A DNA stretch of 64,000 nt from Flavobacteriales bacterium (lineage in GTDB: Bacteria; Bacteroidota; Bacteroidia; Flavobacteriales_F; PHOS-HE28): positions 1,554,824 through 1,618,823 of the forward strand of contig JADJAA010000001.1 in the NCBI GenBank assembly GCA_016704485.1, given 5' to 3'. The translations under genes and the position numbers were made by a program. Under the pieces are notes generated by a model. It was not told the DNA's origin. It worked only from the letters and a program-made list of their open reading frames with translations, and did no database searches. Below, piece after piece: positions 17,520 through 36,434 of this stretch. Every line of letters begins with the position of its first letter. Position 1 is the first letter of the stretch.

Positions 17520-17620
17520 GATCGTGTTGAACAACCTATGTATTGTCCTTCGTGTGATTATTGTTCAGCGCTGTATCAGTTAGCTGCGTGGCGAAGATGC
17601 GCCTAAAGTATTTGTTCAGA

Positions 17621-21079: not shown

Positions 21080-21273
21080 GGAGGCGCAATTGACGATATT
21101 CTAAGCACTTGTACAATTACAAGATGCGAATAAGTCGAGCCTATGATGTGCGGCTTGTGATGGTAACTGCCGCGTGTGGCCCTTTACGGCTCTAAAATAC
21201 ATGTGGATACTTCAGAACCGGTCTTCTTGCTGCTAAGAGAATGCTAATTCCTCTGAAGCACTACATTGCGGAC

Positions 21274-23375
21274 ATGTGCACCCACACACGCCTGCTATTA
21301 GTTGCGATCGCCATTTTTGGTCGTAGGGCTATGCACGGCGCAACAAGATGGACCAACCGAGGAGGAGCAGCCAACAATTATCACGGCGGAACAACTGCAG
21401 GACTTTAATTCGGTAGTGCCCGGCATGGGTCGACAGATCCCGGGAATATACTTGTCCAACTACGGGCTTCTGTGTTACCACTTTGGGGATGATGGCACAT
21501 TCGCATCGCGCGACTTGAATGATTCCGGTTGGGTCGCAGCCGGTTCATGGTATGCGCCCATCACGTTGCCAAAGGAACAATTGGACACTGCGCAAGCCCT
21601 GTGGGTGCGGTACCATCTTCTCTGCGACAGTTCCCTGCGCGGTAGCCCATTGACACTAAGTTTGGGATCCATTGCCGGTATTGAGATCTTTTTGAACGGC
21701 CATCGGTTGGTGCACGTCCGGGAATTGCCGCCGGTTGTTCATGATCTTGATCAACCAATTTGGGACACGCTGCGGCGCTTTACCCTACCGATCACATTCG
21801 CGTGCCAAGGCGAACCAGAAGTGCTCGCTATTCGGATAGATCCGGCAAGGAATGGAATTCCCTACCCCACTTTGCACTATACGAACTTCGCCTACAACGT
21901 ACAGCTGTCCGCGATGCACTATGGTGTCTTCATCGGGGTCAACGCCATCATCTTTTGCTCGCCTTGGTCCTCTGGTCTTTGGACCGGAATGATAAGCAGT
22001 GGTGGCTACTGGCCCTGCTGGCCTTCGTTACAGGATCAGGGTATGCGCCAAGTTGACCAGTGAGATGGGCTTGTTGGGTTTGCCGTGGCCCACCATCCAG
22101 GTCATTGGCATTATTGACAAGATCCTCCTTCTATGGCCTATGTATGTGCTTATCATGGTCTTGTGGCGCATGCTAGGTGGGTTATCAAGTCGGCGCGCCT
22201 TTTGGCTCACCTTCGGTGTCTTGTTCGTTTCGGCAACCAGCGCTGGCCGCTTGTACTTTTTCGGGAAGATCTCCTGGTCATTTTCGGAGATCACGGGGGA
22301 ATACAGCATAGATGCAGGTTTGTCCGATGATCAGTGGCCACTTTTGGTCGCACTGGTGGTTGGTGCGGTACTGCGCTATTCCATAGCGCTCTGGTTCGCG
22401 ATCGAATTGATCCGACTTGGCATTCGCCTGGTGCGTAAGAAGGGTTTCGGACGTTGGATCGGGGCAGGGGCGCTTGTGTCCAGTCTGTTGAGTTTCCTCT
22501 TGACGTGCTTCGGCCTGGTCACTGAAATACCATCTACGACATGGCTCACACTTTCCGATTATCTCGCCTATGTTGCTGTGCCGGTTTCAGTCGTCATTTA
22601 TCTGGCCGTCACTGCCGCTCAAAACAACAAGCTGGTAGCGCGTCAACGGGATGATCTTGATCGCGAGGTGGACGACCGTACCGCCGAACTTGTAGCGGAG
22701 AAACAAGCGGTGTTGCGCGAGAAAGAACGCAGCGATGAACTACTCCTCAACATCCTGCCATCCGAAGTGGCGGAAGAACTAAAAGCCAACGGTTCGGCAA
22801 AGGCGCGGGACTTCGATCCCGCCACCATCCTGTTCACCGACTTCAAAGGCTTCACGGAGCTATCCGTGCAATTAAGTGCTCAGGATCTGGTGGCCGAGAT
22901 CAATACGTGTTTCGAGGCGTTCGATGGGATAATTTCCCGGTACGGTGTGGAGAAGATCAAGACCATTGGCGATGCTTACATGGCGGCAGGTGGCGTGCCT
23001 GATCCTCTGCGCGGATCACCGGCAGGTGTTGTAGAGGCCGCGTTGGAGATGCAGGAATTCATGGTCAGGTACAAAGCGCAACGAACAGCCTTGAACAAAC
23101 CGGCCTTCGAGATGCGTCTCGGTGTTCACACCGGCCCAGTGGTGGCGGGCATCGTGGGTGTGAAGAAGTTCCAGTACGATATCTGGGGCGACACCGTGAA
23201 CACGGCCAGCCGCATGGAGAGCAATAGCGAAGTGGGCCAAGTAAACATCTCGCAGAGCACCTATGAACTGGTGAAGAACGTGCCGGGACTTGCCTTCACA
23301 TCGCGAGGCAAAATACCAGTGAAAGGGAAAGGAGAGCTGGAAATGTACTTCGTAAAGAGAGGGCCGGTCGCATAG
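21274..23375 (+). pseudogene. 7TMR-DISM-type class III adenylate/guanylate cyclase with a broken reading frame (at least 3 shifts)
   Basis: Track ORFs 21302-22063 (extracellular 7TMR-DISMED2-like domain), 21760-22056 and 21999-23375 (TM helices plus cyclase domain IKTIGDAYMAAGG...GVKKFQYDIWGDTVNTASRME) occupy three frames. The sensible protein path is: signal peptide MCTHTRLLLVAIAIF (ATG 21274, frame 1); LVVGLCTAQQ... (frame 2, shift at a T5 run near 21313); ...GVFIGVNAIIF then LLALVLWSLDRNDKQWWLLALLAFVTG (shift near 21950); then KLTSEMGLLGLPWP... (shift near 22045). Confidence 0.6.
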
Positions 23376-23476: not shown

Positions 23477-24274
23477 CTATCCACTCCACTTCACGATATC
23501 CGCCACTACCGTCTTGTAGCTCAAGCCACGCAGCCGTTTCACCACCACGATGCGGGTATCTCCGTACTGCTCTGCGCGTTCGACCGACGAGTCAGTTGGT
23601 CTACTTTCCTTGATCCCCAGCCCCGTGCGAAAATGCGACCACCACGTATCGTTGGTGAGCACCACACAGAGTTTCGGCTGTAATTCCTCCAGTTCCATGC
23701 GCACCAGATCCACGCATTCGGGTCGTTGCAGGATGCGCTCGTCCACATCCGGATTGGCCACTTCGCCACGGTTCTGCGGTGCGATCTTGTAGAGGTTGGA
23801 CCATACCAGTTGACGGTTCCATTCCCACGCGTCCTCATTTGTGATGCCGTGCCGAACCTGCATCAGCTTGACCGTGGCCTGCCAGAAGAACGATGACCAA
23901 GCGCGGTAGTTCTTCTCCCGTTCGGTATACCAGGCTTGTTCTTCCGGGCTACACTTGTTCAAGGTAGTGTTCGTCCACAACACGTTCACCCAATCCAACG
24001 GGGAGTGGTCTTTGAAGGGTTCGTTGGAGTAGCGCTTGCTCTCTTCTATGCGGCCCCTCGGTACTGCCTTCGTGAAGTCCCACTCCGGGTGCCAACCACC
24101 CACGGCCTGGCCGTAGACCAGCACATCAACCGGTTCATTCGTTCGCGTACCGATGCTCGGATAGAAGTCTGTGAAGTGGGTGCGTTGCGGAAAGGTGCGC
24201 GCCAGTCGACGTTGAAAGGCTTCCAAGTGTTGCTGGTAGGCGGCGTTATAGGTTGGTGAGAGGGTGCGATACAT
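23477..24274 (-). CDS. Hypothetical 266-aa protein lodged between hsdS and the hsdS remnant
   Basis: ATG at 24274 (MYRTLSPTYNAAYQQHLEAF...). The longer track ORF to 24451 runs out of frame through the hsdS 3' end. There is no confident family. VDVLVYGQAVGGW faintly resembles UDG-superfamily motif 1, but this is unverified. Confidence 0.6.
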   Translation of the reverse strand: MYRTLSPTYNAAYQQHLEAFQRRLARTFPQRTHFTDFYPSIGTRTNEPVDVLVYGQAVGGWHPEWDFTKAVPRGRIEESKRYSNEPFKDHSPLDWVNVLWTNTTLNKCSPEEQAWYTEREKNYRAWSSFFWQATVKLMQVRHGITNEDAWEWNRQLVWSNLYKIAPQNRGEVANPDVDERILQRPECVDLVRMELEELQPKLCVVLTNDTWWSHFRTGLGIKESRPTDSSVERAEQYGDTRIVVVKRLRGLSYKTVVADIVKWSG

Positions 24275-24302: not shown

Positions 24303-25448
24303 TTAGTTCCCCAACTCCCCCCGGAACGCCCCCTGCAACAAACTCCCGAACAAGCCCTCGCTCTGGTGTAAGCTTGCTGCAATGCAGGTGCGCTGCTTTT
24401 GGATGTTATGGAGTAATGTTCCGAACCGTTCCTGCGCTTTGAGTGGAACAAGTGGAATACGCATTCTTCGGATCTCTTCTGTTGTGATATTCTTGAAGAT
24501 GGCTCCCACCGACTTATCGCTGACCCCTACGGCGAGCATATTCAGATAATGGTAAATGAACCTCAGGTCAAAGCCTTTGTCAAAGTCACGAAATCCTGCA
24601 AATCCATCGTGTATGCAACAGTCGACCATCAGGATCGCTGGCAGGCCTGGCTTCCCACTTACAGCCATCACCAAGTCACCACGTTTCATTGGACGACTGC
24701 GCTGTGAGCCTTCAATCGTGAGTGAATCGATCTGAGGTGTCACATACATCCCATCACGGGTCAAGTCTGCAACCATTAGGCGAGGCACGGGACCTCCAAA
24801 GTATCGCGCATCACCCTGTGGTCTTGGACTGCTCCCACGGACGACCTCACACAACGAACCCAAGTCTACAGTTTCCCACCCCCTCTCATTCCGCACCGGA
24901 TCCCCGAACAGCTCCAAGAACAGGCTCTTGGCAAGTTGGTCGTAAACCGCCAAGGTTCGCCGGTCGTTGGCCACCAGCGCCTGCGCCTTGTCCAAGATCG
25001 CCGCGATGCGACGCTGCGTGGGGAGGGCGGGCGGAGCAAAAGGTAAGCTGCGGATATCTTCTATCTTGAAGCCTTTCACCGTCGCTCCGTTTCCACGCGA
25101 AATGAAGTAATTCTCTTTCGCAAATAGAAAGTAATAGAGATAGGTCTGGTCAACCTTGCCATTTATAACAAGCGCCTTCAGATCCTGATTGAATGCCATC
25201 GGCACGTTCGTGATCGACATGCGCCCAAGAGCCATGCGTGTTGCAATCAATAACGTTCCGGCTGGAACTATCTGTGTCGCACAATTATCTACACCGCGTT
25301 CAGTGATCGACTCGTACGTCTCCGAAATATGCTTTGATGTAAGATCCTTCACCGTAGCCCATGGGACATCACCTTCCCAATAGCCCTCGATATCGCGATT
25401 AGGAGTACCACCACCAAGTATCTGGATATAATTGCCCAGCACGCTCAT
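24303..25448 (-). CDS. hsdS: Type I R-M specificity subunit
   Basis: 381 aa with two TRD halves, each followed by a conserved helical spacer (...LPTQRRIAAILDKAQALV... and ...LKAQERFGTLLHNIQKQR...). 4-nt ATGA overlap with hsdM. Confidence 0.9.
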   Translation of the reverse strand: MSVLGNYIQILGGGTPNRDIEGYWEGDVPWATVKDLTSKHISETYESITERGVDNCATQIVPAGTLLIATRMALGRMSITNVPMAFNQDLKALVINGKVDQTYLYYFLFAKENYFISRGNGATVKGFKIEDIRSLPFAPPALPTQRRIAAILDKAQALVANDRRTLAVYDQLAKSLFLELFGDPVRNERGWETVDLGSLCEVVRGSSPRPQGDARYFGGPVPRLMVADLTRDGMYVTPQIDSLTIEGSQRSRPMKRGDLVMAVSGKPGLPAILMVDCCIHDGFAGFRDFDKGFDLRFIYHYLNMLAVGVSDKSVGAIFKNITTEEIRRMRIPLVPLKAQERFGTLLHNIQKQRTCIAASLHQSEGLFGSLLQGAFRGELGN

Positions 25449-27004
25449 TTCAACAACGCCTCCAATTCGTCCAACAATTTCACACGGTCGGCGGCCAATT
25501 GGCGCAGGCCGGGTTCTCCCTTTTTGCCGTTGATCAGCTCGGCGGGCGTGGCATACTTCACTTGCTCGTACACCACCTCCTTGTAGCGGTTTATGCTGAG
25601 GTCCCAGTTGTTGGCCTTCAAGTCCGCAAAGGGCACCAGAAAGCTCTGGTCGGTTCGTGCACGTTTGCTTTCACCTTTCGCACCGAAGCGCGCTAGGATG
25701 TCGGCGATGTTGCTTTTCTCGTGCAGCGTTTTCGCTCCCTTGGTGGGCTCGGTGTATTGGAGTTCAAGCTGTTCTTCGGTGAGTTGCGGTGTGCGCTTAT
25801 CATCCAACGAGAAACCGTCGGCACGCATGTCGTAGAACCACACGTTGTCGGTACCGCCGCTATCGGTCTTGGTAAAGATCAGCACCGCGGTGCTCACCCC
25901 TGCATAGGGTTTGAATACGCCGCCGGGCATGCTGATCACCGCTTGCAATTGCTGGCGTTCGATCAGTTCCTGCCGCAGTTGCTTGTGCGCCTTGCTGCTG
26001 CCGAAGAGCACACCATCGGGCACGATCACAGCTGCGCGGCCACCTGTGCGGAGCATGCGCAGGATCAGACCTAGGAAGAGCAACTCGGTCTTCTTGCTGC
26101 TCACTGTGCGCAAGATCGCAGGGTCCACAGCGTCGTGGTCCAAGCTGCCTTTGAACGGCGGGTTCGCTAACACCAGCGAGAAGCGCTCACTGATGTGGCC
26201 TTGCTCTTTGCTAAGCGCATCCTGCCCGATCAGTTGCGGGTGCTCAATGCCGTGCAACATCATGTTCATGGCACCAATGCGCAACATGCTGGAGTCGAAC
26301 TCGACCCCGGTGAAGAGGTTGGTGTTGTAATGCTCGCGGAACTTCTTCTCGTGGAAGCTGTCCGGGTGCGTGCGCCGTATCTCTTCGCTTGCCGCCACCA
26401 AGAAACCGCACGTGCCGGCACTGGGATCGCAGATGGTATCGGTGGGTTGCGGAACCATCAGTTGCACCATCATGCGGATGATGTGGCGCGGTGTGCGGAA
26501 CTGGCCGTTGCGTCCTGCCGTAGCGATCTTGCCCAGCAGGTATTCATAGAGGTCGCCCTTGGTGTCGCGGTCGGCCATGTCCAGCGCGGCGATCATTTGC
26601 ACGGCGCGGTCCAGCAACCGCGCGGAGGGGATCATGAACGTAGCACCCTTCATGTGCTCACTGAACACGCTGCCCTCGCGCCCCATCTGCTTCATGAAAT
26701 CGAAGACCGTGAGGTTATCGTTCTTCGCATCAGGCCGCGTAAAGAGCGCGAACAATGTATCCGGGTCCTTGTCCTTGAAACTGCTCCACCGCAACGCCTT
26801 GTACTTGGGCGGGTAAATGGGATCCTTGATGGGCCCACCGAGCTTGGCGCTCTGCTTCTCTTTGGTGGTCTGGATCTCATCCATCCGGCGCAAAAAGAGC
26901 AAGTAGGTGATCTGTTCGATAACCGTGAGCGGATTGGCGATGCCGCCAGTCCAGAAGGCCTCCCAGAGGCGGTCGACGTCGGAGCGGAGTGTTCCGTTTA
27001 TCAT
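25445..27004 (-). CDS. hsdM: Type I R-M DNA methyltransferase subunit
   Basis: HsdM N-terminal domain. FRTPRHIIRMMVQLM, motif I ICDPSAGTCGFLV and motif IV VLANPPFKGS are all intact. Confidence 0.92.
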   Translation of the reverse strand: MINGTLRSDVDRLWEAFWTGGIANPLTVIEQITYLLFLRRMDEIQTTKEKQSAKLGGPIKDPIYPPKYKALRWSSFKDKDPDTLFALFTRPDAKNDNLTVFDFMKQMGREGSVFSEHMKGATFMIPSARLLDRAVQMIAALDMADRDTKGDLYEYLLGKIATAGRNGQFRTPRHIIRMMVQLMVPQPTDTICDPSAGTCGFLVAASEEIRRTHPDSFHEKKFREHYNTNLFTGVEFDSSMLRIGAMNMMLHGIEHPQLIGQDALSKEQGHISERFSLVLANPPFKGSLDHDAVDPAILRTVSSKKTELLFLGLILRMLRTGGRAAVIVPDGVLFGSSKAHKQLRQELIERQQLQAVISMPGGVFKPYAGVSTAVLIFTKTDSGGTDNVWFYDMRADGFSLDDKRTPQLTEEQLELQYTEPTKGAKTLHEKSNIADILARFGAKGESKRARTDQSFLVPFADLKANNWDLSINRYKEVVYEQVKYATPAELINGKKGEPGLRQLAADRVKLLDELEALLK

Positions 27005-27017
27005 GGGGTGAAGATGG

Positions 27018-28226
27018 TCAATGTTTGGTGATGGTGGTAAATTCCCATTTAGACTGTCCGTTCAGTTCGACTTGTTTGACTTGGCCGGAAACGAGGTCGC
27101 CATCCACAAGGCTGTGTAGTTTTATCAGATCCTTGTTGATGTAGGCATCGCCAGCATGGGCGTAGGTGTTATCGTTGCGTTTCTTGACCACGACGCGGCC
27201 CAGTTCTTTGGTATCACCGTCGAGTAGGGGAACTCCGTCGCTGCCTACCGCTTCCTCGTGTAGCCAGGTTCGGTTCGCCTTGGGGTCTGGATACTTTGCT
27301 GCGAACTTCTTGAACCAGACCAACACGTCCATGAGCTGGAACACGATGGTGCTCAAGAGGTAAGGCGTTACACCATGCTCGTGTAGTGCTTCGAGATTGT
27401 CCAAGCTGTAATTGGAATCCTCAGCGGTCTCGTCCGCATGCGAGCTTTCGCTGGTTACCCGCAGAATATTGTCCAGTGCATCGGCAACGATCCGGGGCAT
27501 CATCGGGCGGTCACACTTCAAGGCCACCGTGGCCGAAGAACGGCTCGGATAAAGCACGCGCTCGCCCCGCAGGAACAGTGCTGACAAGCGTTGGTTGACC
27601 CTCGGCTTTACAAGGACATCGGGTAGTAACCCGTGCCGATGCGCGGCATAGAAGAAGTGCTCCACTACCTGACGCAAAGGATTCATGAATAAGCGATCAC
27701 TACCGGACTTGTCCCCGCGATCCACAAAGCGCAATGCGTCCATGAACATAGGGTCGGCAACGGCATCCAAATAAGGAACTTGGAGCACTGCGAACACATC
27801 GGCATACCTATCACGAAGCGCTTGCTCGTTGCTTCGATCAACAAGGCTCTGTAGTTCCGCGTATAGGTCCTTCTCGTTCCCTTTCAAGTACCGCCGCTCA
27901 TCACGACGGTTCTTTGTTGCACCTTCGTCAAAGCCGGTATTGATCACATACGGAATATGAATGTTCGCTCCTTTCCATTGGTCCAGATCCCTGCGGGCTT
28001 CATGCAGGTGGTCGATGTCCTCGGTGGGTGAATGTTCATCCACCTGCCCTCTGGCATCGAGGATCAAGGCTTTGAAACGCTTTTCTCGGATCGGTTCCTT
28101 AGCCTCGGCCCAGGTCTTGAACCAAGTCACTTCGAAACCGTGCGCGACCGCCTTAGCAATTTGGGCTTTGGCGTATGCTTCATCGTCATCTACTAAGGCG
28201 ATCGGAACCAGGTCAAACAGTGTCAT
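27018..28226 (-). CDS. Receiver (REC)-domain protein with DUF4145/HEPN-like middle domain and C-terminal beta-rich domain
   Basis: ATG 28226 gives MTLFDLVPIALVDDDEAY...FKALILDARG...IPYVINTGF, a REC-like acidic pocket, Asp and Thr. The middle region NPLRQVVEHFFYAAHRHG ... LDNILRVTSESSHAD parallels RRALERTVHWLY ... YIRRTGNAAAHDK in the HsdR N-terminus (Rx4-6H). 14-nt overlap with the upstream kinase gene. Confidence 0.6.
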   Translation of the reverse strand: MTLFDLVPIALVDDDEAYAKAQIAKAVAHGFEVTWFKTWAEAKEPIREKRFKALILDARGQVDEHSPTEDIDHLHEARRDLDQWKGANIHIPYVINTGFDEGATKNRRDERRYLKGNEKDLYAELQSLVDRSNEQALRDRYADVFAVLQVPYLDAVADPMFMDALRFVDRGDKSGSDRLFMNPLRQVVEHFFYAAHRHGLLPDVLVKPRVNQRLSALFLRGERVLYPSRSSATVALKCDRPMMPRIVADALDNILRVTSESSHADETAEDSNYSLDNLEALHEHGVTPYLLSTIVFQLMDVLVWFKKFAAKYPDPKANRTWLHEEAVGSDGVPLLDGDTKELGRVVVKKRNDNTYAHAGDAYINKDLIKLHSLVDGDLVSGQVKQVELNGQSKWEFTTITKH

Positions 28227-30909
28227 GCGAAATGGGAAGGTCAATGGTGAAGTGGACAAACATTTGAGTGGATACAGCTTCCCGGTCAAATGGTATCCAA
28301 TGATTCTCGTCTATACGTTGATCGCGTTCAAAACTCGATCGGTACTTGTCATCGCTCACTGGCAGGTTACCCGACACGAACTTTCCGCCGTGGTTGGCAA
28401 TGATCCGATCGATCAGATAGCCGCCTATGCCATTGCCCTTTTTCATGTCCAGACGCTTGCCAAAGGTGATGAAGTGCTCATGGGTAAAACCTTCCGGAAA
28501 GGGTTTGCCGTTGTTCTCGATGGTGATAACCAATCGCGTTCGTTGAGGTTCAATACGCGTTGATACCCTCACCCGTACGACCAATTGTTCCTGATCCGAT
28601 CGAAGGCCGTGTTTGGCCATATTGATGAACAAGTTCTGGATGACAAGTGCGAACTGTTGTTGATCGACATGTGCGATCACTCCTTCAGTGGTTTCTAGTC
28701 CAGCTTCACATTCGAAAATGACCATAAGCGCTTTCACCTGGTCGGCAAGTCCGCGCAATTCCGTTCGGAACAGTCGACGAAGGTCGATGGGCACTGGTCT
28801 TAGACTCTCCTTATCTGATCGGATCACCGCATTGATCAATTGAAAGAGACCGCGCATGCGATCCAATCCACTATTCATTGTATCTAGGGCGGTGGTGATC
28901 GTAGACTTTTCAACTGGGCCCAAACTGTTGAGTACTGCATGGATCTCGGCCATGGGTTGCTCCAGAAGCGCCACCACCGGGCGGAAGCTGTGCTCCACTG
29001 CACCAAGGATCTGCCACTCATCAGTGGAGAGGCCATGCTGTTTTTCCTGCCTAGCGATCTCCTCCTTCTTCGCCAATAGAATGGATTCCTTCCGTTCGCG
29101 AACAATGCGCAGTTGATCCTTGAGTTCGGGTAAGCGAACCCGAATTCTCAGAACGTCTGCTTTGGCTATGAAAGCGATCGTACTTCCTTGGTGGTATGCG
29201 TCGAGCTGATCTTGGATCGTGGGCGTTCTTAGTTCTGTTGCGAGGTATTCGGTATTAGCACGAGCCGCATCCACACGGAACATGAATACATTGCTTCCCA
29301 CGGCGATCGGTCCATCTACCGGGTCGAATAAGGTCGGCTTCAACTTTCCGCCCACCCGTGCAAGTAGCAGTGCTGGCACATCCAATCTCTTCAGTCCCTT
29401 CTTGACAGAACCGGTTTCATGTTGCCCATCACGCGCCGTGCGCCTCATGTCGAGGACATCCGTTGAAAGCTCGGAGACCTGGAAGAGCGGCAGACCGGCG
29501 AGGTCGCCCATGGAGAGGATATCGTCCGAAAGCACGGTGCCGAGTTCAACCACGTCCACACCATCCGCTTCGGCCACGATATGGGCTTGTTGAAGCAGGC
29601 TGGCAAACCGACTCATGCTCCAAGACACATGCTCGTCGGAACGGATGTCAGAAACCTTCACGTCCAAAACACCTTGTAAGGTATAAGTGCTATCCAACGC
29701 CTGCAGCACGCTGCTAACATCGAGTGTTATTTCGGATCGCGTCTTGTATGTGACATGCAAACCCGCATCCACGAATCGGACAGGCGCATTCGTTGGCCGT
29801 GATCCATTCAAAACAATGATCGAGGTCTTTATCCCTGAGTAGGGTGTGAAGGATCCTGCTGGCAACGAGATCACTGCTTCGAGCAACCCTAGGTCAAGAA
29901 TCTGTTTGCGTAGATGCGCTCTGTTGATGCCGAACAACATACTCTCGGGCACAAGGATCACCGCCTTCCCCTCGGGTGCAAGCCGCTTGAGGATCTGGTT
30001 GATCGCTATCTCATAGGGTTCTATCGCGCGTAGCCTTCCTTCCTCTTTCACTCGACCACCGAAAGGTGGTGCACTAATGCAATGCGTATACTTCTTGTTG
30101 GAAGCACCGGGTGCTGATGGTTCGTTCAAGGCGGCGTTCAGGTCTGCCCCGAGAATACGTGCTTGCAGCGTATTGAAGAAGAATGCGAATTGGTTGAAGA
30201 ATACCGCGTCGAGCTTTACAGAATGTGGCGCACGCGCTGCGAGCACTGCTGGCAATACGCTCGCATCCGCAGCTGGGTCGAATACCTCTTCCACGTCTCC
30301 GAGCAGCCGCGCCATAAGCATTGCAACGGACCATGGCGTACAGAACTGGCCCATGTGACTATCGCGCAAGAGGAGGCTACGCATTTCTTCCACATACTCG
30401 ATCGGTTCCAAACCCGCTGATGCCATGAGAAAAAGCTCAGTTTGTACTGGGCTTGTTGCCAGTGCGCCGCCATTTTTAAGAAGATACGAATGCTGCTCCC
30501 CAAAGTCCTTAAACTCCTCTGCCAATTCATTCAAGGTGGACCATAATCCTTCTCCTCTTTGAGCGATCGTAGGCAACACTCCTGCTGGGCGCACGGCCAA
30601 GGCATAAATGAGTGCCAGCTCCAAGCCAACGGTCTGCGCGAAGGGCATGGATCGTAGCGCATTGCGCAATTCCCATGCGTGGGCCTGAAAAAAACGGACC
30701 CGGTTCAACATACGTTCTGGATCCAACTGTAAACTACCGTCATCGGATATACTAACACGCCCACCAGACAACTCCACCTCAGCAAGCAAGCTCGATGGCT
30801 CAACGTCCTTCTGGCTCAATAAGACCTTGACGATATTACAGACACCCTCCAAAGTATCCGAGCCGTTCTTCAGGCGAAGGGCACATATTATGGCGTCTAT
30901 CAGTTTCAT
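28213..30909 (-). CDS. Chimeric sensor histidine kinase: HsdM-like N6-MTase fold (degenerate motifs) + HsdS-like TRD + DHp/HATPase_c
   Basis: MTase-like: GQFCTPWSVAMLMARLL, VFDPAADASVLP (motif I lacks GxG), HCISAPPFGG (Ala where N/D/S is expected), KAVILVPESMLFG...LLEAVISLPAGSFTPYSGIKTSIIVLN. TRD-like: VELGTVLSD...LLLARVGGKLKPTLFD...VGSNVFMFRV...YLATELRT. Kinase: H-box GAVEHSFRPVVALL, N-box VIQNLFINMAKHG, ITIENNGKPF, GNGIGGYLIDRII. Confidence 0.7.
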   Translation of the reverse strand: MKLIDAIICALRLKNGSDTLEGVCNIVKVLLSQKDVEPSSLLAEVELSGGRVSISDDGSLQLDPERMLNRVRFFQAHAWELRNALRSMPFAQTVGLELALIYALAVRPAGVLPTIAQRGEGLWSTLNELAEEFKDFGEQHSYLLKNGGALATSPVQTELFLMASAGLEPIEYVEEMRSLLLRDSHMGQFCTPWSVAMLMARLLGDVEEVFDPAADASVLPAVLAARAPHSVKLDAVFFNQFAFFFNTLQARILGADLNAALNEPSAPGASNKKYTHCISAPPFGGRVKEEGRLRAIEPYEIAINQILKRLAPEGKAVILVPESMLFGINRAHLRKQILDLGLLEAVISLPAGSFTPYSGIKTSIIVLNGSRPTNAPVRFVDAGLHVTYKTRSEITLDVSSVLQALDSTYTLQGVLDVKVSDIRSDEHVSWSMSRFASLLQQAHIVAEADGVDVVELGTVLSDDILSMGDLAGLPLFQVSELSTDVLDMRRTARDGQHETGSVKKGLKRLDVPALLLARVGGKLKPTLFDPVDGPIAVGSNVFMFRVDAARANTEYLATELRTPTIQDQLDAYHQGSTIAFIAKADVLRIRVRLPELKDQLRIVRERKESILLAKKEEIARQEKQHGLSTDEWQILGAVEHSFRPVVALLEQPMAEIHAVLNSLGPVEKSTITTALDTMNSGLDRMRGLFQLINAVIRSDKESLRPVPIDLRRLFRTELRGLADQVKALMVIFECEAGLETTEGVIAHVDQQQFALVIQNLFINMAKHGLRSDQEQLVVRVRVSTRIEPQRTRLVITIENNGKPFPEGFTHEHFITFGKRLDMKKGNGIGGYLIDRIIANHGGKFVSGNLPVSDDKYRSSFERDQRIDENHWIPFDREAVSTQMFVHFTIDLPISHDTV

Positions 30910-30971: not shown

Positions 30972-32234
30972 TCAAGCGACTTTCTCCAGTCGGTTTGTCG
31001 GCAGAAGTTGGGCAGCCATACGATCCATGACCTCCCATTCCGGACGTGTGTACGAGTTGCTCTCCGTGACCACCGGGATCCTGAATTCGCCCATGGCATC
31101 CTCGCGCATAGCCCATTGATCCTTCTGGTCGTAGAGCTTTGTTCCGGGCAAAAGCATCAGCGGCCAAGCCTTAACGTCCCTGCAGCCTTTGGATAAGAGG
31201 TGGTCGATACTACGCTGGAAACTTTCCAAGGTCTGTCCGGGCAACCCGTAGATCAAACTCACTTCGAAAGGAATCTCGCGCTCCACAAGCTGTTCAATAG
31301 CAGCATCGACAAGATCCATCCGATTGGCGCGGTCAATTTTCTTGGACACTGCATGGTCCGTGGTCTGCAACCCGAACTCCAAGTGGAAGTTGGCTTGCGT
31401 ACAAAGGTCCAGGAATGCATTAACCTGTTGGCCTCGGATATTCTCAAAGCGCGATTGCAGGGTGAAGGTGGAGCGCGTACGGAGTTGAACGATCTCTTGC
31501 ATTATATCCAGGCACTCCTTCCCAGCGTTGAAGATGGGGTCGAGTATGTTCACGCGTTGCACACGATGTTCAGTGAGAAATGCTAACTCTTTAAAGACTT
31601 TATCCAGTGGGTGCTTATGCACGCGGTGAGTGGCGAGGTCGCGGTGTGCGCAAAATGAACACCGGTAGGGGCAGCCGCGTTTGGTCTCCAACCGTACCAT
31701 ACCGGCTCCCATTGGTACAGGCAATTCGCCAGTGAGATACGGTGAGGCCAGTTGTGTGAAGTCCACTGGTACGTTCACGAACACGGGTTCGTCGGCATCG
31801 AGATGGTCCGTCAATTCGGCAAAGGCTTGTTCGGCTTGTCCGGAGATGAAGACCTGGCAATCCGGATACCGACGCAGCAATTCTGCTCGGTTCCCGTAGG
31901 TGACTTGATACCCTCCGAGGACCACCTTGCCAAGGAACCCAAGACGACGAAGCAATGCGATGATGCCATTGGTGAGGTACTCGTTCCAGATGTAAGCCGA
32001 GAGCGCGATGGCGTTAAAGCGGCTCACATCAAGCGCCGCGAGTTGCACTTCGAATTGCTCGGGTGTGGCCGTGCCGCCGTGTTCGAGCATGTTGATCGAG
32101 AGGTGTTCCACGTGCATCTGTCCACGCAGCCGTTCATTACTCCGTTGGTGTGCCAAGAGAGATGCGATCGCCAAGGGCTTGGTGATCTCACCGTGCCGGA
32201 TCAGGTCGAAGGATATGATGAGCGTGTTCGTCAT
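30972..32234 (-). CDS. Radical SAM enzyme with N-terminal B12-binding-like domain
   Basis: ATG 32234 (MTNTLIISFDL...). Rossmann-like N-terminal domain VVLGGYQVTY. CxxxCxxC cluster in ETKRGCPYRCSFCAHRD. Confidence 0.8.
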   Translation of the reverse strand: MTNTLIISFDLIRHGEITKPLAIASLLAHQRSNERLRGQMHVEHLSINMLEHGGTATPEQFEVQLAALDVSRFNAIALSAYIWNEYLTNGIIALLRRLGFLGKVVLGGYQVTYGNRAELLRRYPDCQVFISGQAEQAFAELTDHLDADEPVFVNVPVDFTQLASPYLTGELPVPMGAGMVRLETKRGCPYRCSFCAHRDLATHRVHKHPLDKVFKELAFLTEHRVQRVNILDPIFNAGKECLDIMQEIVQLRTRSTFTLQSRFENIRGQQVNAFLDLCTQANFHLEFGLQTTDHAVSKKIDRANRMDLVDAAIEQLVEREIPFEVSLIYGLPGQTLESFQRSIDHLLSKGCRDVKAWPLMLLPGTKLYDQKDQWAMREDAMGEFRIPVVTESNSYTRPEWEVMDRMAAQLLPTNRLEKVA

Positions 32235-32343
32235 TGGTCCTCGCCACCAAGGGTCTATATGGTTGGATAATCGCTCAACCAACGAACTTCCCTATGGCAA
32301 CGGACCAAAAGTCCCGGTCACCTGTGCAGTCTATCTGCACAGT

Positions 32344-33354
32344 TCATTTCGCGTAGTTCTTCTTCATTTCCATCACCCGCAAAAGCAGCGCTTGGCGTAG
32401 TTCTTCCGGCGCAATAACCTGTAGCCCTTCTCCATAAGATAACAACAAGGCTTGTAGCTCGTAGTTCAGCTTCACTTCTAAACGAATAGTCGCGCCGCCG
32501 TCTTTTCTCTTCACTACTTTCTGCGAACCGTGTATAGGCTTTGACTCCAAATAAGGCCAAAGTCTATCCGTGACTTGGATCTTGACAACAACAGCTTCTT
32601 GATCCGCAGGTACACTTACACCAACAACATCCTCAAAATACTCCGTGAAATCCACCTCATCGTTCGGTATGTATTTCACCTTACTGGGTACAATATCCCG
32701 GATCCGGTCCAAGGCCATATTGACAATACGCCCCTCTTCCTCAAGACCAAAAACAAACCAACGGTTGTTATACTGTTTCAAGTAATACGGATGGAGCAAC
32801 ACAATGCTAGGCGCATTTTGCTTGAAGCCTTGGTAAGATATTTCCAAGGCTTGCTCATTGATGATCGAATGAAATAATGTGGTAATGTGCTCGGCACCTT
32901 TCAAATACGGGTTCTGCTCAAACTCGATGACCTGAGCAGCCCCTTGTTTCAGCCCGAAACCAGCTTCCAACCGAGCAACTAATTCATCTACCCATTCAAA
33001 CTGCGGCATGCCCTTAAATCGGCTCAGCGTTAAGAGCGCCTCCTTCAATTGTTCCGCTTCGCTCTCGTTCAGCGGTCGCTTGTTGATAGAGAATTCAAGG
33101 TCACTGTACCGGTAAAAAGTACGCTTTCCGTCTTTGTGTTTCTCCAGCGGGATAGCCCATCCTTGTTCGCTCTCCATGTACTTGATGTCCTCGAAAACTT
33201 GGCGGCGGCTGATGCTTGCACCTGCTCCGGTGAACTCCTCCAACGCCATGTTGCAAGCTTCCATCAGGTCTTCGATGAAATACTCGCGCCCACGGTTCGC
33301 AAAGCAACGGTCCATTGTCTGATAGCGAATAAGGGCATTCTTATTTACGGGCAT
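32344..33354 (-). CDS. WYL-domain transcriptional regulator (BrxR/CapW-like layout: wHTH + WYL + C-terminal domain)
   Basis: N-terminus MPVNKNALIRYQTMDRCFANRGREYFIEDLMEACN. WYL core VLLHPYYLKQYNNRWFVFG...NMALDRIRDIV. It is the first gene of the minus-strand operon. Confidence 0.8.
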   Translation of the reverse strand: MPVNKNALIRYQTMDRCFANRGREYFIEDLMEACNMALEEFTGAGASISRRQVFEDIKYMESEQGWAIPLEKHKDGKRTFYRYSDLEFSINKRPLNESEAEQLKEALLTLSRFKGMPQFEWVDELVARLEAGFGLKQGAAQVIEFEQNPYLKGAEHITTLFHSIINEQALEISYQGFKQNAPSIVLLHPYYLKQYNNRWFVFGLEEEGRIVNMALDRIRDIVPSKVKYIPNDEVDFTEYFEDVVGVSVPADQEAVVVKIQVTDRLWPYLESKPIHGSQKVVKRKDGGATIRLEVKLNYELQALLLSYGEGLQVIAPEELRQALLLRVMEMKKNYAK

Positions 33355-33489: not shown

Positions 33490-33904
33490 CTGCCAGCTGG
33501 GTGGTAACCTGCACCAAGCTTGATGGTACCACACACCAAGCTTAGTGGTACCCTGTGCCAAGCTTAGTGGTACCTTGCACTAAGCTTGATGGTACCCTGC
33601 ACTAAGCTTAGTGGTACCCTGCACTAAGCTTAGTGGTACTCTGCACTAAGCTTAATGGTACCCTGCACCCAGTTGGGTGGTACCCTCCACCCAGCAGGGT
33701 GGTACCCTGCACCCAGTTGGGTGGTACCCTGCACTAAGCTTAGTGGTACCCTGCACTAAGCTTAGTGGTACTCTGCACTAAGCTTAATGGTACCCTGCAC
33801 CCAGTTGGGTGGTACCCTGCACCCAGTTGGGTGGTACCCTGCACCCAGTTGGGTGGTACCCCGCACTAAACTTAATGGTACCCGACACCAAGCTCAATAG
33901 TGCA
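33490..33904. repeat. Tandem array 1: about 19 contiguous 22-bp units, each carrying a 14-bp palindrome plus GGTACC
   Basis: The units are CTGCACTAAGCTTAGTGGTACC (core CACTAAGCTTAGTG) or CTGCACCCAGTTGGGTGGTACC (core CACCCAGTTGGGTG). Units at 33597-33728 are repeated at 33729-33860 as a 132-bp (6-unit) higher-order repeat. Edge units are degenerate. Confidence 0.95.
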
Positions 33905-33993: not shown

Positions 33994-34202
33994 CTATACC
34001 ATACTACTATAGGGCACATTGAACCTTAGTCTGGACTTCCGCCTTCGGAACTGCATTCGCTGCCAGATGATCATTGGGGTGCAATTATCCCAAACCTATA
34101 CCATATTACTATAGGGGGCATAAGCCTCCATCTCCGGCTCGTGAACTTTGGAGGTAAAGATGGTGTGATTTGACCTACTACCTATACCATATTACTATAT
34201 GG
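33994..34202 (+). promoter_or_regulatory. Three dispersed copies of a 21-bp element CTATACCATA(T/C)TACTATA(G/T)GG
   Basis: Copies at 33994-34014, 34096-34116 and 34182-34202, with starts 102 and 86 bp apart, all in the same orientation. Two copies end in ACTATAGGG, identical to positions -6 to +3 of the T7 promoter consensus. Function is unknown. Confidence 0.5.
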
Positions 34203-34291
34203 TGCTTTGCACCGTGCGCCTCGTGGTGCACACTTGTGGTTCAGAACTGCTTCATGTAGGCCTGGTGCAAGAGGCTGTATTTGTTCCATTG

Positions 34292-34753
34292 GTACATGGC
34301 CTTGTCCCGTAAGTACATGTACTTGTGCCTTTGGTACATGTACTTGTCCCGTGAGTACATGTACTTGTCCCGTAAGTGCATGTACTTGTCCCGTGAGTAC
34401 ATGTACTTGTCCCGTGAGTACATGTACTTGTCCCGTAAGTACATGTACTTGTCCCGTAAGTACATGTACTTGTGCCGTTGGTACATGTACTTGTCCCGTA
34501 AGTACATGTACTTGTGCCGTTGGTACATGTACTTGTGCCGTTGGTACATGTACTTGTGCCGTGAGTACATGTACTTGTGCCGTGAGTACATGTACTTGTC
34601 CCGTAAGTACATGTACTTGTGCCGTTGGTACATGTACTTGTCCCGTAAGTACATGTACTTGTCCCGTAAGTACATGTACTTGTCCCGTAAGTACATGTAC
34701 TTGTCCCGTAAGTACATGTACTTGTGCCGTGAGTATGTGTACCTGTACCATGT
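34292..34753. repeat. Tandem array 2: about 22 contiguous 21-bp units built on the palindrome GTACATGTAC
   Basis: Units are GTACATGTACTTGTCCCGTAA, with variants ending ..GTGCCGTTG, ..GTCCCGTGA and ..GTGCCGTGA. Adjacent units form GTACATGTACTT-GTCCCGT-AAGTACATGTAC, a 12-bp stem with a 7-nt loop. The period is a multiple of 3, so all six frames appear open. Confidence 0.95.
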
Positions 34754-35042
34754 GTAACGATACTTCAAGTTACAGTACACTTACTTGATACAGAGGTGCT
34801 TATGCCATTGCGTGGGGTATGCCTGCTTGTAACACGGGGACTGATAACCCACTCAGCGTCAGGCGTAAAGAGTGATCCGAACGTTGCCCGTGCTGCATAA
34901 CCCATCCTCGAGCGGCCGCGTGCGGGCTACAGTAAATGAAAAGAACCCCGGCCAGTTGTGCTAGGATTCTTCCGTTCGGGGATGGTGTATGAGTGGCAGG
35001 GTCGTCTGCTATGCGGCAGACTGACCCTGAGCGGGTTTAAAA

Positions 35043-36426: not shown

Positions 36427-36434
36427 TGAAGAGC

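What the first reader, a model, noticed from the sequence alone, without database searches (positions are those of the whole stretch)
30972..32234. B12-binding-type radical SAM enzyme embedded between the WYL regulator and the MTase-like kinase
The CPYRCSFC cluster and an N-terminal Rossmann-like domain identify a class-B-like radical SAM enzyme. Radical SAM enzymes known in antiviral immunity (prokaryotic viperins) lack this N-terminal domain, so the role here is open. It could modify a nucleic acid or nucleotide, or make a small-molecule signal. Its position in the operon suggests a functional link to the kinase/REC pair.
Basis: partly seen in the sequence, partly recalled or inferred. Interest (0 to 1): 0.5.

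Follow-up and report, generated by a model that had tools for sequence, protein, structure and literature searches.

The report
Cobalamin-type radical SAM defence enzyme
The gene encodes a vitamin-B12-type radical SAM enzyme from an uncharacterised family that sits in bacterial anti-phage islands and is often paired with nucleotide kinases, which suggests it makes a modified antiviral nucleotide much as viperin does, though nobody has tested this.

Summary
Window 30972..32234 (-) encodes a 420-aa radical SAM protein with an invariant CPYRCSFC cluster motif and an N-terminal Rossmann domain. Its closest solved relatives are the cobalamin-dependent C-methylases CysS and TokK (Foldseek TMq 0.72-0.77). 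The Trp that lies under the cobalt in TokK is invariant here. The protein fails the curated cutoffs of every named family and lacks the TokK/CysS C-terminal domain. It matches PADLOC candidate PDC-M51A end to end (E 7e-117), and I found no paper on the family.

Eighty genomic loci show a patchy, multi-phylum distribution with very variable, defence-rich neighbours. The one recurrent partner is an adjacent small nucleotide or nucleoside kinase. Three different kinase families fill this role in 13/80 loci (Fisher p 7e-10). Bacterial viperins show a similar rate (12%).

The link to the kinase/REC pair is real but clade-specific. The order WYL-(DUF2130)-rSAM-pseudo-methyltransferase histidine kinase-response regulator-HsdM-HsdS is conserved in all sampled close relatives and recurs in a distant clade. 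The same backbone also exists without the rSAM.

Best reading: a portable, viperin-like nucleotide-modifying effector carried here by a type I RM/two-component defence operon. The chemistry is inferred, not shown.

The parts
30972..32234 (-). 420-aa cobalamin-type (class B-like) radical SAM enzyme, PADLOC PDC-M51A family
   Evidence: ORF and translation. Pfam Radical_SAM 3e-13. PDC-M51A 6.8e-117 over residues 3-412. AF2 model pLDDT 85.4. Best PDB matches are CysS and TokK.
31770..32234 (-). N-terminal Rossmann (cobalamin-binding-type) domain, about residues 1-155. It includes the invariant S79-x-Y81-x-W83-x-E85 loop after strand 3 (W83 codon 31986..31988) and L106-G107-G108-x-Q110.
   Evidence: Invariant columns in A1. 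The HMM alignment places 'ISAYIWNE' on TokK 'LSCYVWNF', so W83 corresponds to TokK Trp76. Trp76 lies under the Co of cobalamin (bioRxiv 10.1101/2021.07.10.451909; PMC13331322). Secondary structure.
31650..31673 (-). CX3CX2C [4Fe-4S] cluster motif C188-P-Y-R-C192-S-F-C195, followed by the family-specific invariant A196-H197-R198
   Evidence: TokK and CysS have Asp/Phe-Trp at the position of A196-H197.
32344..33354 (-). WYL/WCX-domain transcriptional regulator heading the operon
   Evidence: Pfam WCX 1.7e-11 and WYL 3.3e-10. Orthologues at 66-68% identity sit upstream in L001, L081, L082 and L084.
28213..30909 (-). 898-aa sensor histidine kinase: HsdM-like pseudo-methyltransferase (motif I 'FDPAADAS', motif IV 'SAPPF') + HsdS-like target-recognition domain + DHp (H640) + HATPase_c
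   Evidence: Pfam and PADLOC. Sequence. The family alignment A4 shows degenerate MTase motifs in all 14 members and invariant H, N, G1 and G2 boxes.
27018..28226 (-). 402-aa response regulator: canonical REC (D13-D15, D57, T97, K115) + helical domain of unknown function + C-terminal S1/cold-shock-like domain
25445..27004 (-). Type I RM methyltransferase HsdM (active-type), co-conserved with the rSAM at 78-85% identity
   Evidence: Pfam N6_Mtase 1.6e-57 and HsdM_N. PADLOC MTase_I 1.7e-168. Synteny.
24303..25448 (-). Type I RM specificity subunit HsdS
   Evidence: Pfam Methylase_S 2.7e-31, two TRDs. PADLOC.
23477..24274 (-). 265-aa protein of unknown function, last gene of the operon (JGI call; the longer 324-aa ORF overlaps hsdS)
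   Evidence: 59% identical counterpart in L001. No family match.
17621..21079 (-). Type I RM restriction subunit HsdR, separated from hsdS by an oppositely oriented cyclase gene
   Evidence: PADLOC REase_I 2.7e-160; NCBIfam type I endonuclease 2.6e-85. N-terminal HsdR fragments also follow the operon in L081 and L082.

Best explanation
Shown: the gene encodes a minimal (420-aa) radical SAM enzyme with a cobalamin-type Rossmann domain. It belongs to the same structural lineage as the B12-dependent C-methylases TokK, ThnK and CysS, but it forms its own uncharacterised family (PADLOC candidate PDC-M51A). The family is scattered across many phyla inside anti-phage defence islands.

Inferred mechanism: the enzyme reductively cleaves SAM at its [4Fe-4S] cluster. 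It uses (methyl)cobalamin to carry out a radical transformation of a free nucleotide or nucleoside, most probably a C-methylation. The resulting analogue interferes with phage nucleic-acid synthesis. This would make it a viperin-like chemical effector built on a different radical SAM scaffold. Where a dedicated kinase is adjacent, it would feed the substrate or phosphorylate the product.

In this window the enzyme is cargo of a WYL-controlled operon. That operon couples a complete type I RM system to an unusual two-component pair: a pseudo-methyltransferase/TRD histidine kinase, which presumably senses DNA or the state of the RM complex, and a REC-S1/CSD response regulator. The rSAM is the only non-RM enzymatic effector candidate in this copy of the operon, because the DUF2130 nuclease-like gene of sister loci is absent. 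How the phosphorelay connects to the rSAM is unknown.
For: Identity:
- Pfam, PADLOC and NCBIfam results.
- PDB profile hits to CysS (4e-32) and TokK (3e-21) that cover both domains.
- Foldseek TMq 0.72-0.77 to CysS and TokK, then TsrM, AprD4, OxsB and MgmA; viperin matches only the core at 0.36.
- Invariant W83 aligned to TokK Trp76, which lies under the cobalt.
- Relatives P0202 and P0225 pass the Pfam B12-binding cutoff.

Defence context:
- In the window: Septu PtuA/B, type I RM, HEC-05-like, DpdF-like helicase and a Pycsar-like cyclase.
- In relatives: NsnB, AriA/Old, PtuA, IetA, DRT reverse transcriptases, WYL, ParE-like and NYN.
- Patchy distribution over more than 10 phyla.

Nucleotide substrate:
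- 13/80 loci have an immediately adjacent same-strand small P-loop kinase with a gap of -48 to 161 bp.
- Three different families fill this role: dTMP-kinase-like (= PDC-M51B/VakA), short adenylate kinase, and uridine-kinase-like.
- They occur in at least 5 separate rSAM clades.
- Kinase-like ORFs make up 13/150 adjacent ORFs but only 2/874 non-adjacent ORFs in the same loci (odds ratio 41, p 7e-10).
- 12% of bacterial viperins carry such a kinase (bioRxiv 10.1101/2023.09.13.557418).

Modularity:
- rSAM-MT-HK-REC synteny in the near clade and in L061/L062.
- The same backbone without an rSAM but with DUF2130 or PD-(D/E)xK genes in L086 and L087.
Against: - No kinase is encoded anywhere in this 64-kb window.
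- 84% of family loci have no adjacent kinase.
- The window protein's own B12-binding score is below the Pfam cutoff.
- Some B12-like-domain rSAMs, such as AprD4 (also among the structural hits), do not use cobalamin (from my own knowledge).
- No substrate pocket could be analysed, and no experiment exists for any member (searches found no literature).
- Defence function itself rests on guilt by association and a PADLOC 'candidate' label.
- Kinase counts are not phylogenetically independent; 7 of the 13 lie in one gammaproteobacterial clade.
Confidence: 0.45

Rival explanations
1. The rSAM is a nucleic-acid (DNA or RNA) modification enzyme of the RM-like system. It adds a second, radical-derived mark, for example C-methylation of a base or extension of the N6-methyl group laid down by HsdM. 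The pseudo-methyltransferase kinase reads this mark to tell self from non-self.
For: It is embedded directly upstream of hsdM-hsdS in two distant rSAM clades. The rSAM and HsdM are the two most conserved proteins of the operon at 75-85% identity. The closest solved relatives, TokK and CysS, iteratively methylate existing methyl groups. NYN RNases are adjacent in 5 loci.
Against: About 90% of family loci have no methyltransferase nearby. The MT-HK/HsdM/S backbone works without the rSAM in L086 and L087. The 420-aa protein has no recognisable DNA/RNA-binding domain. The recurrent partners are mononucleotide or nucleoside kinases of three families rather than polynucleotide enzymes.
Confidence: 0.17
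2. The rSAM makes a small-molecule signal, such as a modified nucleotide, rather than a poison. A ligand-binding partner (the WYL domain, or the response regulator's helical domain) senses it to switch the operon or an effector on.
For: WYL regulators are adjacent in the whole near clade and in at least 9 of 80 loci. The operon is otherwise made of sensing and signalling parts. Base-modified nucleotides are a known immune signal (abstract of bioRxiv 10.1101/2024.12.20.629578).
Against: WYL regulators of this type accompany many unrelated defence systems, so adjacency is not specific (PMC9122601). Most family loci have neither a WYL gene nor any obvious receptor/effector gene. A cobalamin-dependent radical SAM reaction is presumably slow and costly for an acute signal; this is my inference, no tool tested it.
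Confidence: 0.15
3. The gene has nothing to do with immunity. It is a metabolic, cofactor or natural-product radical SAM enzyme that happens to lie in a variable genomic island.
For: All characterised close structural relatives are biosynthetic enzymes. Neighbours are highly variable. No homologue was found in the viral-contig, phage or plasmid collections.
Against: No biosynthetic gene cluster surrounds it in any sampled locus. The operonic neighbours are defence genes and toxin-antitoxin modules. It shows tight, conserved operon linkage to a type I RM/two-component module. The family is patchy across phyla. PADLOC independently flagged the rSAM+kinase pair as a defence candidate.
Confidence: 0.08

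Closest known systems
TokK / ThnK / CysS (KedN5-type cobalamin-dependent radical SAM C-methyltransferases)
   Same: Same two-domain core: Cbl Rossmann domain plus rSAM partial barrel. They share the 'ET[KN]RGCPYxCxFC' cluster region and the 'S-x-Y-V/I-W-N' loop whose Trp lies under the cobalt. They are the best sequence and fold matches.
   Different: About 22% identity. The NCBIfam KedN5 score is 113 bits against a cutoff of 700. The ~230-aa C-terminal substrate-capping domain is missing. TokK's active-site Trp215 is replaced by the invariant His197-Arg198. The genomic context is defence islands, not antibiotic gene clusters.
Prokaryotic viperins (pVips) with viperin-associated kinases
   Same: A radical SAM enzyme in defence islands, usually a stand-alone gene, with an adjacent NMP kinase in a minority of loci (16% here, 12% for bacterial viperins). 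The dTMP-kinase-like partner matches the PADLOC VakA model, which I read as the viperin-associated kinase, at 1e-27 to 1e-31.
   Different: A different rSAM lineage: only the core superposes (TMq 0.36), and there is no pVip HMM hit. It has a cobalamin domain, so the chemistry is expected to be methylation or rearrangement rather than dehydration to ddhNTP.
OxsB/OxsA (oxetanocin A biosynthesis)
   Same: [quoted passage not shown] OxsB is a structural hit (TMq 0.59).
   Different: OxsB is 744 aa with extra N- and C-terminal domains, and it needs the HD-domain partner OxsA. Sequence similarity is marginal (E 1.7e-3). No HD phosphohydrolase is linked here.
PADLOC PDC-M51 (phage defence candidate, unvalidated)
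   Same: The window protein matches PDC-M51A over its full length (6.8e-117).
   Different: The PDC-M51B kinase is absent from the window. Here the A protein sits in a different, larger operon. No publication describes PDC-M51.
Ophion (OpnA rSAM + PHP + PRTase)
   Same: A recently validated defence system built around a non-viperin radical SAM enzyme and proposed to make transcription-blocking nucleotides (bioRxiv 10.1101/2025.09.30.679545).
   Different: OpnA is described as viperin-related; no B12 domain is mentioned. The partners are PHP and PRTase, and neither appears among the domains found here.
Detocs and the prr locus (PrrC inside EcoprrI), as analogues for the operon
   Same: Detocs is a two-component phosphorelay used for phage defence. 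The prr locus carries a second-line effector embedded in a type I RM operon that monitors the RM enzyme. Both statements are from established knowledge.
   Different: No PADLOC Detocs model matched the kinase or the REC protein. The sensor here is a pseudo-HsdM+TRD rather than a TPR domain. The response regulator carries an S1/CSD-like domain rather than a nucleosidase. No anticodon nuclease is present.

Membership tests
Radical SAM superfamily (PF04055) | CX3CX2C motif with three cluster-ligating cysteines | tested here: met
   C188, C192 and C195 in KRGCPYRCSFC, invariant in 22 homologues.
Radical SAM superfamily (PF04055) | Profile match above the curated cutoff and a partial TIM-barrel fold | tested here: met
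   50.7 bits against a cutoff of 29.5. The AF2 model with alternating beta/alpha units matches rSAM structures.
Radical SAM superfamily (PF04055) | Reductive cleavage of SAM to the 5'-deoxyadenosyl radical | not testable with these tools
   Requires anaerobic biochemistry.
Class B (cobalamin-dependent) radical SAM enzymes | N-terminal Rossmann-fold cobalamin-binding domain | tested here: met
   The fold is present at residues 1-155 and superposes with CysS and TokK (TMq 0.72-0.77). The profile aligns to their Cbl domains. Caveat: the window sequence alone scores 20 bits against the Pfam cutoff of 32.1; relatives P0202 and P0225 pass.
Class B (cobalamin-dependent) radical SAM enzymes | Residue from the loop after strand 3 occupying the lower axial face of Co (TokK Trp76) | tested here: met
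   Invariant W83 in the loop after strand E75-79 aligns with TokK W76.
Class B (cobalamin-dependent) radical SAM enzymes | Actual corrinoid binding and use | not testable with these tools
   AprD4, also a structural hit, shows that a B12-like domain does not guarantee cobalamin use (own knowledge).
KedN5/TokK/CysS C-methyltransferase family (NF033712) | Score above the curated family cutoff | tested here: not met
   113 bits against a cutoff of 700.
KedN5/TokK/CysS C-methyltransferase family (NF033712) | C-terminal domain closing the substrate channel; active-site Trp215 | tested here: not met
   The protein ends at residue 420, whereas these enzymes are 645-681 aa. Trp215 is replaced by His197.
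Prokaryotic viperin (pVip) | Viperin-family sequence and fold | tested here: not met
   No pVip model hit in PADLOC. Viperin structures match only the core (TMq 0.34-0.37, E ~1e-4).
Prokaryotic viperin (pVip) | Frequent genetic linkage to nucleotide kinases | tested here: met
   Met at family level: 13/80 loci, three kinase families, p 7e-10. Not met in this window.
PADLOC PDC-M51 candidate system | PDC-M51A radical SAM protein | tested here: met
   E 6.8e-117, residues 3-412 on model positions 6-413 of 420.
PADLOC PDC-M51 candidate system | PDC-M51B kinase next to A | tested here: not met
   No kinase-like ORF anywhere in the window. It is present in L047, L050-L053, L055 and L059, and upstream in L029 and L058.
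Two-component system (neighbouring pair) | Histidine kinase H, N, G1 and G2 boxes; receiver DD, phospho-acceptor Asp, Thr and Lys | tested here: met
Two-component system (neighbouring pair) | Phosphotransfer between the pair | not testable with these tools
   Requires a phosphotransfer assay.
N6-adenine DNA methyltransferase (for the 898-aa neighbour) | Motif I glycine-rich SAM loop and motif IV (D/N/S)PP(Y/F) | tested here: not met
   Motif I is 'DPxADxxV' and motif IV is '[A/I/V/K]PPF' in all 14 family members. This makes it a conserved pseudo-enzyme.
Detocs | DtcA/DtcB/DtcC homologues | tested here: not met
   No Dtc model among the PADLOC hits of the 898-aa protein (top 25 of 61 shown). 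No PADLOC hit at all for the REC protein.

The most novel reading that the evidence does not exclude
This family is a second, independent invention of viperin-like chemical immunity. [quoted passage not shown] In the window it is deployed by a previously undescribed sensor: a catalytically dead HsdM+TRD fused to a histidine kinase, which reports foreign DNA, or sabotage of the type I RM complex, through a phosphorelay.
Probability: 0.3. Interest if true: 0.85.

Novelty: new variant of a known kind. Interest (0 to 1): 0.62.

Why it matters
If the inference holds, bacteria have a second enzymatic route to antiviral nucleotide analogues, besides viperin's ddhNTPs. This route would use B12-dependent radical chemistry that can install methyl groups on unactivated carbons. 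Synthetic C-methyl and C-alkyl nucleosides are used as antiviral drugs (from general knowledge). The family is compact (420 aa), widespread (about 780 clusters at 50% identity) and untested, so it is a tractable target for enzymology and natural-product discovery.

The operon around it also matters in its own right. A conserved pseudo-methyltransferase/TRD histidine kinase with a cognate receiver inside a type I RM operon would be a new way of wiring DNA or RM-status sensing to a two-component relay. It shows modular exchange of effectors (rSAM, DUF2130, PD-(D/E)xK) on one sensing backbone.

Tried and rejected
- **E. coli genomes:** no DNA match to the operon.
- **Literature:** no paper mentions PDC-M51, DUF2130, or a B12-type rSAM in defence. 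Ophion, the Dnd/BREX comparative papers and the P. aeruginosa hotspot paper concern other proteins.
- **Does the kinase's TRD copy a TRD of the cognate HsdS?** No. Within-locus similarity is no better than between loci (20-28% identity). The TRD region of the kinase is also fairly conserved among the closest homologues, while HsdS identity is only 30-38% between loci. The simple 'reads the same site as HsdS' idea gets no support.
- **Rosetta-stone fusions to kinases:** longer family members (530-786 aa) have no Pfam domain in their extensions and no Walker A motif.
- **A universal conserved partner:** none was found. BLAST clustering, jackhmmer and phmmer all give only small partner families.
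- **Mobile carriers:** no relatives in IMG/VR. Only ~24%-identical class B rSAMs turn up in the phage and plasmid collections.
- **Sigma-70 promoter and terminator scan:** fewer sites than in shuffled sequence, so uninformative.
- **Tandem arrays upstream of the WYL gene:** not conserved in L001 or L084.
Full report
**1. The observation**

The minus-strand ORF 30972..32282 starts with TTG. The first ATG, at 32234, gives a 420-aa product. JGI called the same product on the source metagenome contig (sample 3300009540, 140,879 bp), and it is stored as P0001. The sequence KRGCPYRCSFCAH carries the CX3CX2C motif.

Pfam Radical_SAM matches residues 184-345 (E 3e-13, above cutoff). Pfam B12-binding matches residues 65-141 at only 20 bits, against a cutoff of 32.1.

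A WYL/WCX regulator lies at 32344..33354. An 898-aa protein with a partial N6_Mtase match and a HATPase_c domain lies at 28213..30909.

**2. What the protein is**

An alignment of 22 homologues at 45-78% identity (A1) shows these invariant blocks:
- S79-x-Y-x-W83-x-E85
- L106-G-G-x-Q110
- G132-x-A-E135
- R181-x-ETKRGC-x-Y-x-C-x-x-CAHR198
- N229-x-x-DP-x-FN236
- Q260-x-R-x-E264
- EFG-x-Q290
- IYGLP-x-QT335
- P358-x-x-LL-x-GT365

*Sequence matches to solved structures.* A profile search of the PDB finds CysS (E 3.9e-32) and TokK (3.2e-21). Both are cobalamin-dependent radical SAM C-methylases. Separate aligned stretches cover the N-terminal domain and the rSAM core.

*Predicted fold.* The AF2 model (pLDDT 85.4, pTM 0.83) has a Rossmann-type domain at about residues 1-155, followed by the rSAM barrel. 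Foldseek against the PDB ranks the hits as follows:

| Structure | TMq |
|---|---|
| CysS | 0.75-0.77 |
| TokK | 0.72-0.73 |
| TsrM, AprD4, OxsB, MgmA | lower |
| MiaB/RimO | lower still |
| Viperin structures (core only) | about 0.36 |

*The cobalt-facing tryptophan.* In the HMM alignment the family block 'ISAYIWNE' lies on TokK 'LSCYVWNF', so the invariant W83 corresponds to TokK Trp76. [quoted passage not shown] It also states that this Trp is shared only with ThnK and CysS among characterised enzymes (bioRxiv 10.1101/2021.07.10.451909). A later review places it in the loop after strand 3 (PMC13331322), which is where W83 sits in the model. Two more distant family members pass the Pfam B12-binding cutoff.

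I therefore regard the cobalamin-type architecture as established at the level of homology. Actual cofactor use is untested.

*It is not a member of any named family.* The best NCBIfam hit (KedN5 family) scores 113 bits against a cutoff of 700. The ~230-residue C-terminal domain of TokK and CysS is absent. TokK's active-site Trp215 is replaced by the invariant His197-Arg198.

The one library that knows the family is PADLOC. Its model PDC-M51A, a 'phage defence candidate', matches end to end at E 6.8e-117. No paper in the searchable library mentions PDC-M51.

**3. Family distribution and neighbours**

An exhaustive HMM search of 1.84 billion cluster representatives finds 782 at E<=1e-30.

A scan of one genome per species returned 80 loci. 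They come from Bacteroidota, Desulfobacterota, Gammaproteobacteria, Campylobacterota, Spirochaetota, Chloroflexota, Planctomycetota, Poribacteria, Latescibacterota and other phyla. This is a patchy distribution.

I called ORFs in all loci and clustered them. Neighbours are extremely variable. Apart from the rSAM itself (77 loci), the largest neighbour cluster covers 11 loci.

Scanning 134 operonic neighbours against Pfam and PADLOC shows that the only strongly recurrent partner is a small P-loop nucleotide kinase. After that come:
- NYN RNases (5 loci)
- ParE-like toxins (5)
- TPR proteins with an unknown 476-aa protein (4)
- HATPase_c proteins (3)
- a scatter of known defence genes: NsnB, AriA/Old, PtuA, IetA, DRT reverse transcriptases, WYL

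No relatives were found in IMG/VR. The phage and plasmid collections hold only ~24%-identical class B enzymes.

**4. The kinase signal**

Thirteen of the 80 loci carry a 162-210-aa Walker-A protein immediately next to the rSAM, on the same strand, with gaps of -48 to 161 bp. These proteins belong to three different families.
- Nine are thymidylate-kinase-like. They match PADLOC PDC-M51B (down to 8.7e-78) and VakA, which I read as the viperin-associated kinase model (down to 1.7e-31). They score just below the housekeeping dTMP-kinase cutoff, 68-78 bits against 83.
- Three are short adenylate kinases: L006, L046 and L063, from three phyla.
- One is uridine-kinase-like (L033, gap 0).

On a neighbour-joining tree of the rSAMs, these loci fall in at least five separate places.

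Within the same loci, kinase-like ORFs make up 13 of 150 adjacent ORFs but only 2 of 874 non-adjacent ORFs (odds ratio 41, Fisher p 7e-10). The caveat is that seven loci form one gammaproteobacterial clade.

For comparison, a survey of viperins reports an associated nucleotide kinase for 12% of bacterial viperin genes. It interprets the kinase as supplying the NTP substrate (bioRxiv 10.1101/2023.09.13.557418).

Three unrelated mononucleotide or nucleoside kinases have been recruited independently. This is the strongest available clue that the rSAM's substrate or product is a free nucleotide.

The window itself encodes no such kinase, and most viperin loci likewise have none.

**5. The operon in the window**

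The gene order on the minus strand is:

| Gene | Coordinates |
|---|---|
| WYL | 33354..32344 |
| rSAM | 32234..30972 |
| 898-aa kinase | 30909..28213 |
| 402-aa receiver protein (ATG overlaps the upstream stop by 14 nt) | 28226..27018 |
| HsdM | 27004..25445 |
| HsdS | 25448..24303 |
| 265-aa unknown | 24274..23477 |

An oppositely oriented cyclase gene follows, and then HsdR (21079..17621).

*The 898-aa protein.* In all 14 aligned family members, methyltransferase motif I reads 'DPxADxxV', with no glycine loop. Motif IV reads '[A/I/V/K]PPF', never N, D or S. By contrast, the H-box histidine (H640 in 'VEHSFRP') and the N, G1 and G2 boxes are invariant. PADLOC type I specificity-subunit models match residues ~470-640. 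It is therefore a conserved pseudo-methyltransferase + TRD fused to a genuine histidine kinase.

**6. Is the rSAM linked to the kinase/REC pair?**

*Evidence for a link.* Homologues of the 898-aa protein are rare: 20 in 5.8 billion sequences. Where contigs are long enough, their lengths match those carrying close rSAM homologues. Five retrieved contexts show the order [WYL]-DUF2130-rSAM-MT-HK-REC-HsdM-HsdS: L081, L082, L083, L084 and the P0006 contig. L001 has the window's order without DUF2130.

Identities to the window proteins differ by component:

| Protein | Identity to window |
|---|---|
| rSAM | 75-85% |
| HsdM | 78-85% |
| Kinase | 40-61% |
| Receiver | 26-76% |
| HsdS | 30-38% |

A second, distant rSAM clade (L061 and L062, 32% identity) carries the same partners in a different order, with kinase-REC upstream of the rSAM.

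*Evidence against an obligate link.* About 90% of family loci lack the pair. Distant homologues of the receiver lead to loci with WYL, MT-HK, REC and HsdM/S but no rSAM. L086 lies on a 3.1-Mb contig. L087 lies next to an integrase and carries DUF2130 and a REase-ARP/PDDEXK_13 gene.

*Reading.* This looks like a sensing and signalling backbone (type I RM + pseudo-MTase kinase + receiver + WYL) that carries exchangeable cargo. The rSAM is one such cargo, and elsewhere it is an autonomous module. DUF2130, which has a weak Mrr_cat (PD-(D/E)xK) match at 4.8e-4, is present in most sister loci but absent from the window. That leaves the rSAM as the only extra enzyme in this copy.

**7. Mechanism**

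*Shown:*
- domain architecture
- homology to Cbl-dependent C-methylases
- defence-island context
- kinase linkage in relatives
- clade-specific synteny with the two-component/RM module

*Inferred:*
- The enzyme uses SAM and cobalamin to modify a nucleotide, most simply by C-methylation, given its nearest relatives.
- The product acts against phage replication or transcription, by analogy with viperin. OxsB, a Cbl-dependent rSAM that makes the antiviral nucleoside oxetanocin A from deoxyadenosine phosphates, is a precedent from established knowledge.
- In this operon the pseudo-methyltransferase kinase senses DNA or the state of the RM complex, for example attack by anti-restriction DNA mimics, as in the PrrC/EcoprrI paradigm. 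This is speculation.

One concrete prediction failed: the kinase's TRD does not mirror the cognate HsdS. How phospho-REC would act on the rSAM is unknown.

*Rivals:*
- A DNA or RNA modification role within the RM-like system. It is favoured by the hsdM adjacency and by the iterative-methylation chemistry of TokK and CysS. It is disfavoured by family-wide independence from methyltransferases and by the rSAM-less backbones.
- A role in making a signal molecule.
- A non-defence metabolic role.

**8. Novelty**

The family is catalogued only as an unvalidated PADLOC candidate. I found no publication on it, on a B12-type radical SAM enzyme in phage defence, or on a pseudo-HsdM histidine kinase. Ophion, a validated rSAM-containing system, has a viperin-related rSAM with PHP and PRTase partners and is a different thing.

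I rate this a new variant of a known kind: radical-SAM-based chemical defence, on a new scaffold and in a new regulatory setting. Interest is moderately high. The function remains inference.

Noticed in passing
window 33501-33894 and 34292-34746: Two head-to-tail tandem arrays lie in the 2.1-kb gap between the WYL gene and Septu ptuB. One has a 22-bp unit x17.9 copies (GTGGTACCCTGCACCAAGCTTA, with a 132-bp higher-order period). The other has a 21-bp unit x21.7 copies (GTACATGTACTTGTCCCGTAA). The 'ORFs' at 34182..34788 on both strands, and their low-complexity Pfam hits, are artefacts of the second array. The arrays are not present upstream of the WYL gene in L001 or L084. Their function is unknown; they could be operator or iteron arrays, or minisatellites.
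   Followed up: partly
window 35458-38822 (-): A Septu system sits immediately upstream of the operon: PtuB-like HNH protein (322 aa, 1.2e-68) and PtuA ATPase (795 aa, 1.6e-157).
   Followed up: no
window 21273-23375 (+): An adenylate/guanylate cyclase gene (Guanylate_cyc 7e-56; PADLOC PycC 1.2e-15) with possible N-terminal transmembrane helices (judged by eye from the hydrophobic stretches in the translation) lies between hsdS and hsdR. In the window it reads as two overlapping ORFs in different frames (21302..22063 and 21999..23375). JGI lists a single 700-aa product for the same span. A straight translation of that span has many stops, so a frameshift, a pseudogene or a gene-calling oddity is possible.
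   Followed up: partly
window 10664-15496 (-) and 15720-17534 (-); L083 15748-end: A 1610-aa RecQ-like + UvrD-like double helicase (PADLOC DpdF 5e-98, GajB-like C-terminal part) and a HEC-05-like 604-aa protein follow hsdR. Similar giant DEAD+UvrD helicases (1824-1826 aa) follow the related operons in L083 and on the P0006 contig, so the helicase may belong to an extended version of the system.
   Followed up: no
L086 5356-9891; L087 4495-13714: The WYL + pseudo-MTase histidine kinase + short REC + HsdM/S backbone occurs without any rSAM. In L087 it sits next to an integrase and a VapE-like gene, and carries DUF7255, DUF2130 and a REase-ARP/PDDEXK_13 protein. The kinase there has an extra HARE-HTH domain. 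The backbone looks like an undescribed defence module in its own right.
   Followed up: partly
L081 4561-5805 (and L082, L083, L084, L005, L061, L087): DUF2130 (about 415 aa) precedes the rSAM in most sister operons but is missing from the window and from L001. It has an N-terminal zinc-ribbon-like stretch and a weak Mrr_cat restriction-endonuclease match (4.8e-4). No paper in the library mentions DUF2130.
   Followed up: partly
proteins P0203, P0225, P0265, P0270, P0279, P0296, P0298, P0305 (distant family members): Many distant rSAM family members carry a 120-370-aa C-terminal extension with no Pfam match. It ends in a conserved 'C-[KE]-L-x-[VI]-G-E-S-G-x-[VIL]-Y-[IVF]-[FY]-R' motif. A few others (P0274, P0303) have Ser-rich low-complexity inserts that look eukaryote-like.
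   Followed up: no
L005 10001-10840: In one Flavobacteriales MAG the rSAM is truncated to 246-280 residues and the downstream kinase/REC/HsdM genes are absent, although WYL and DUF2130 remain. This looks like a decayed copy of the system.
   Followed up: no
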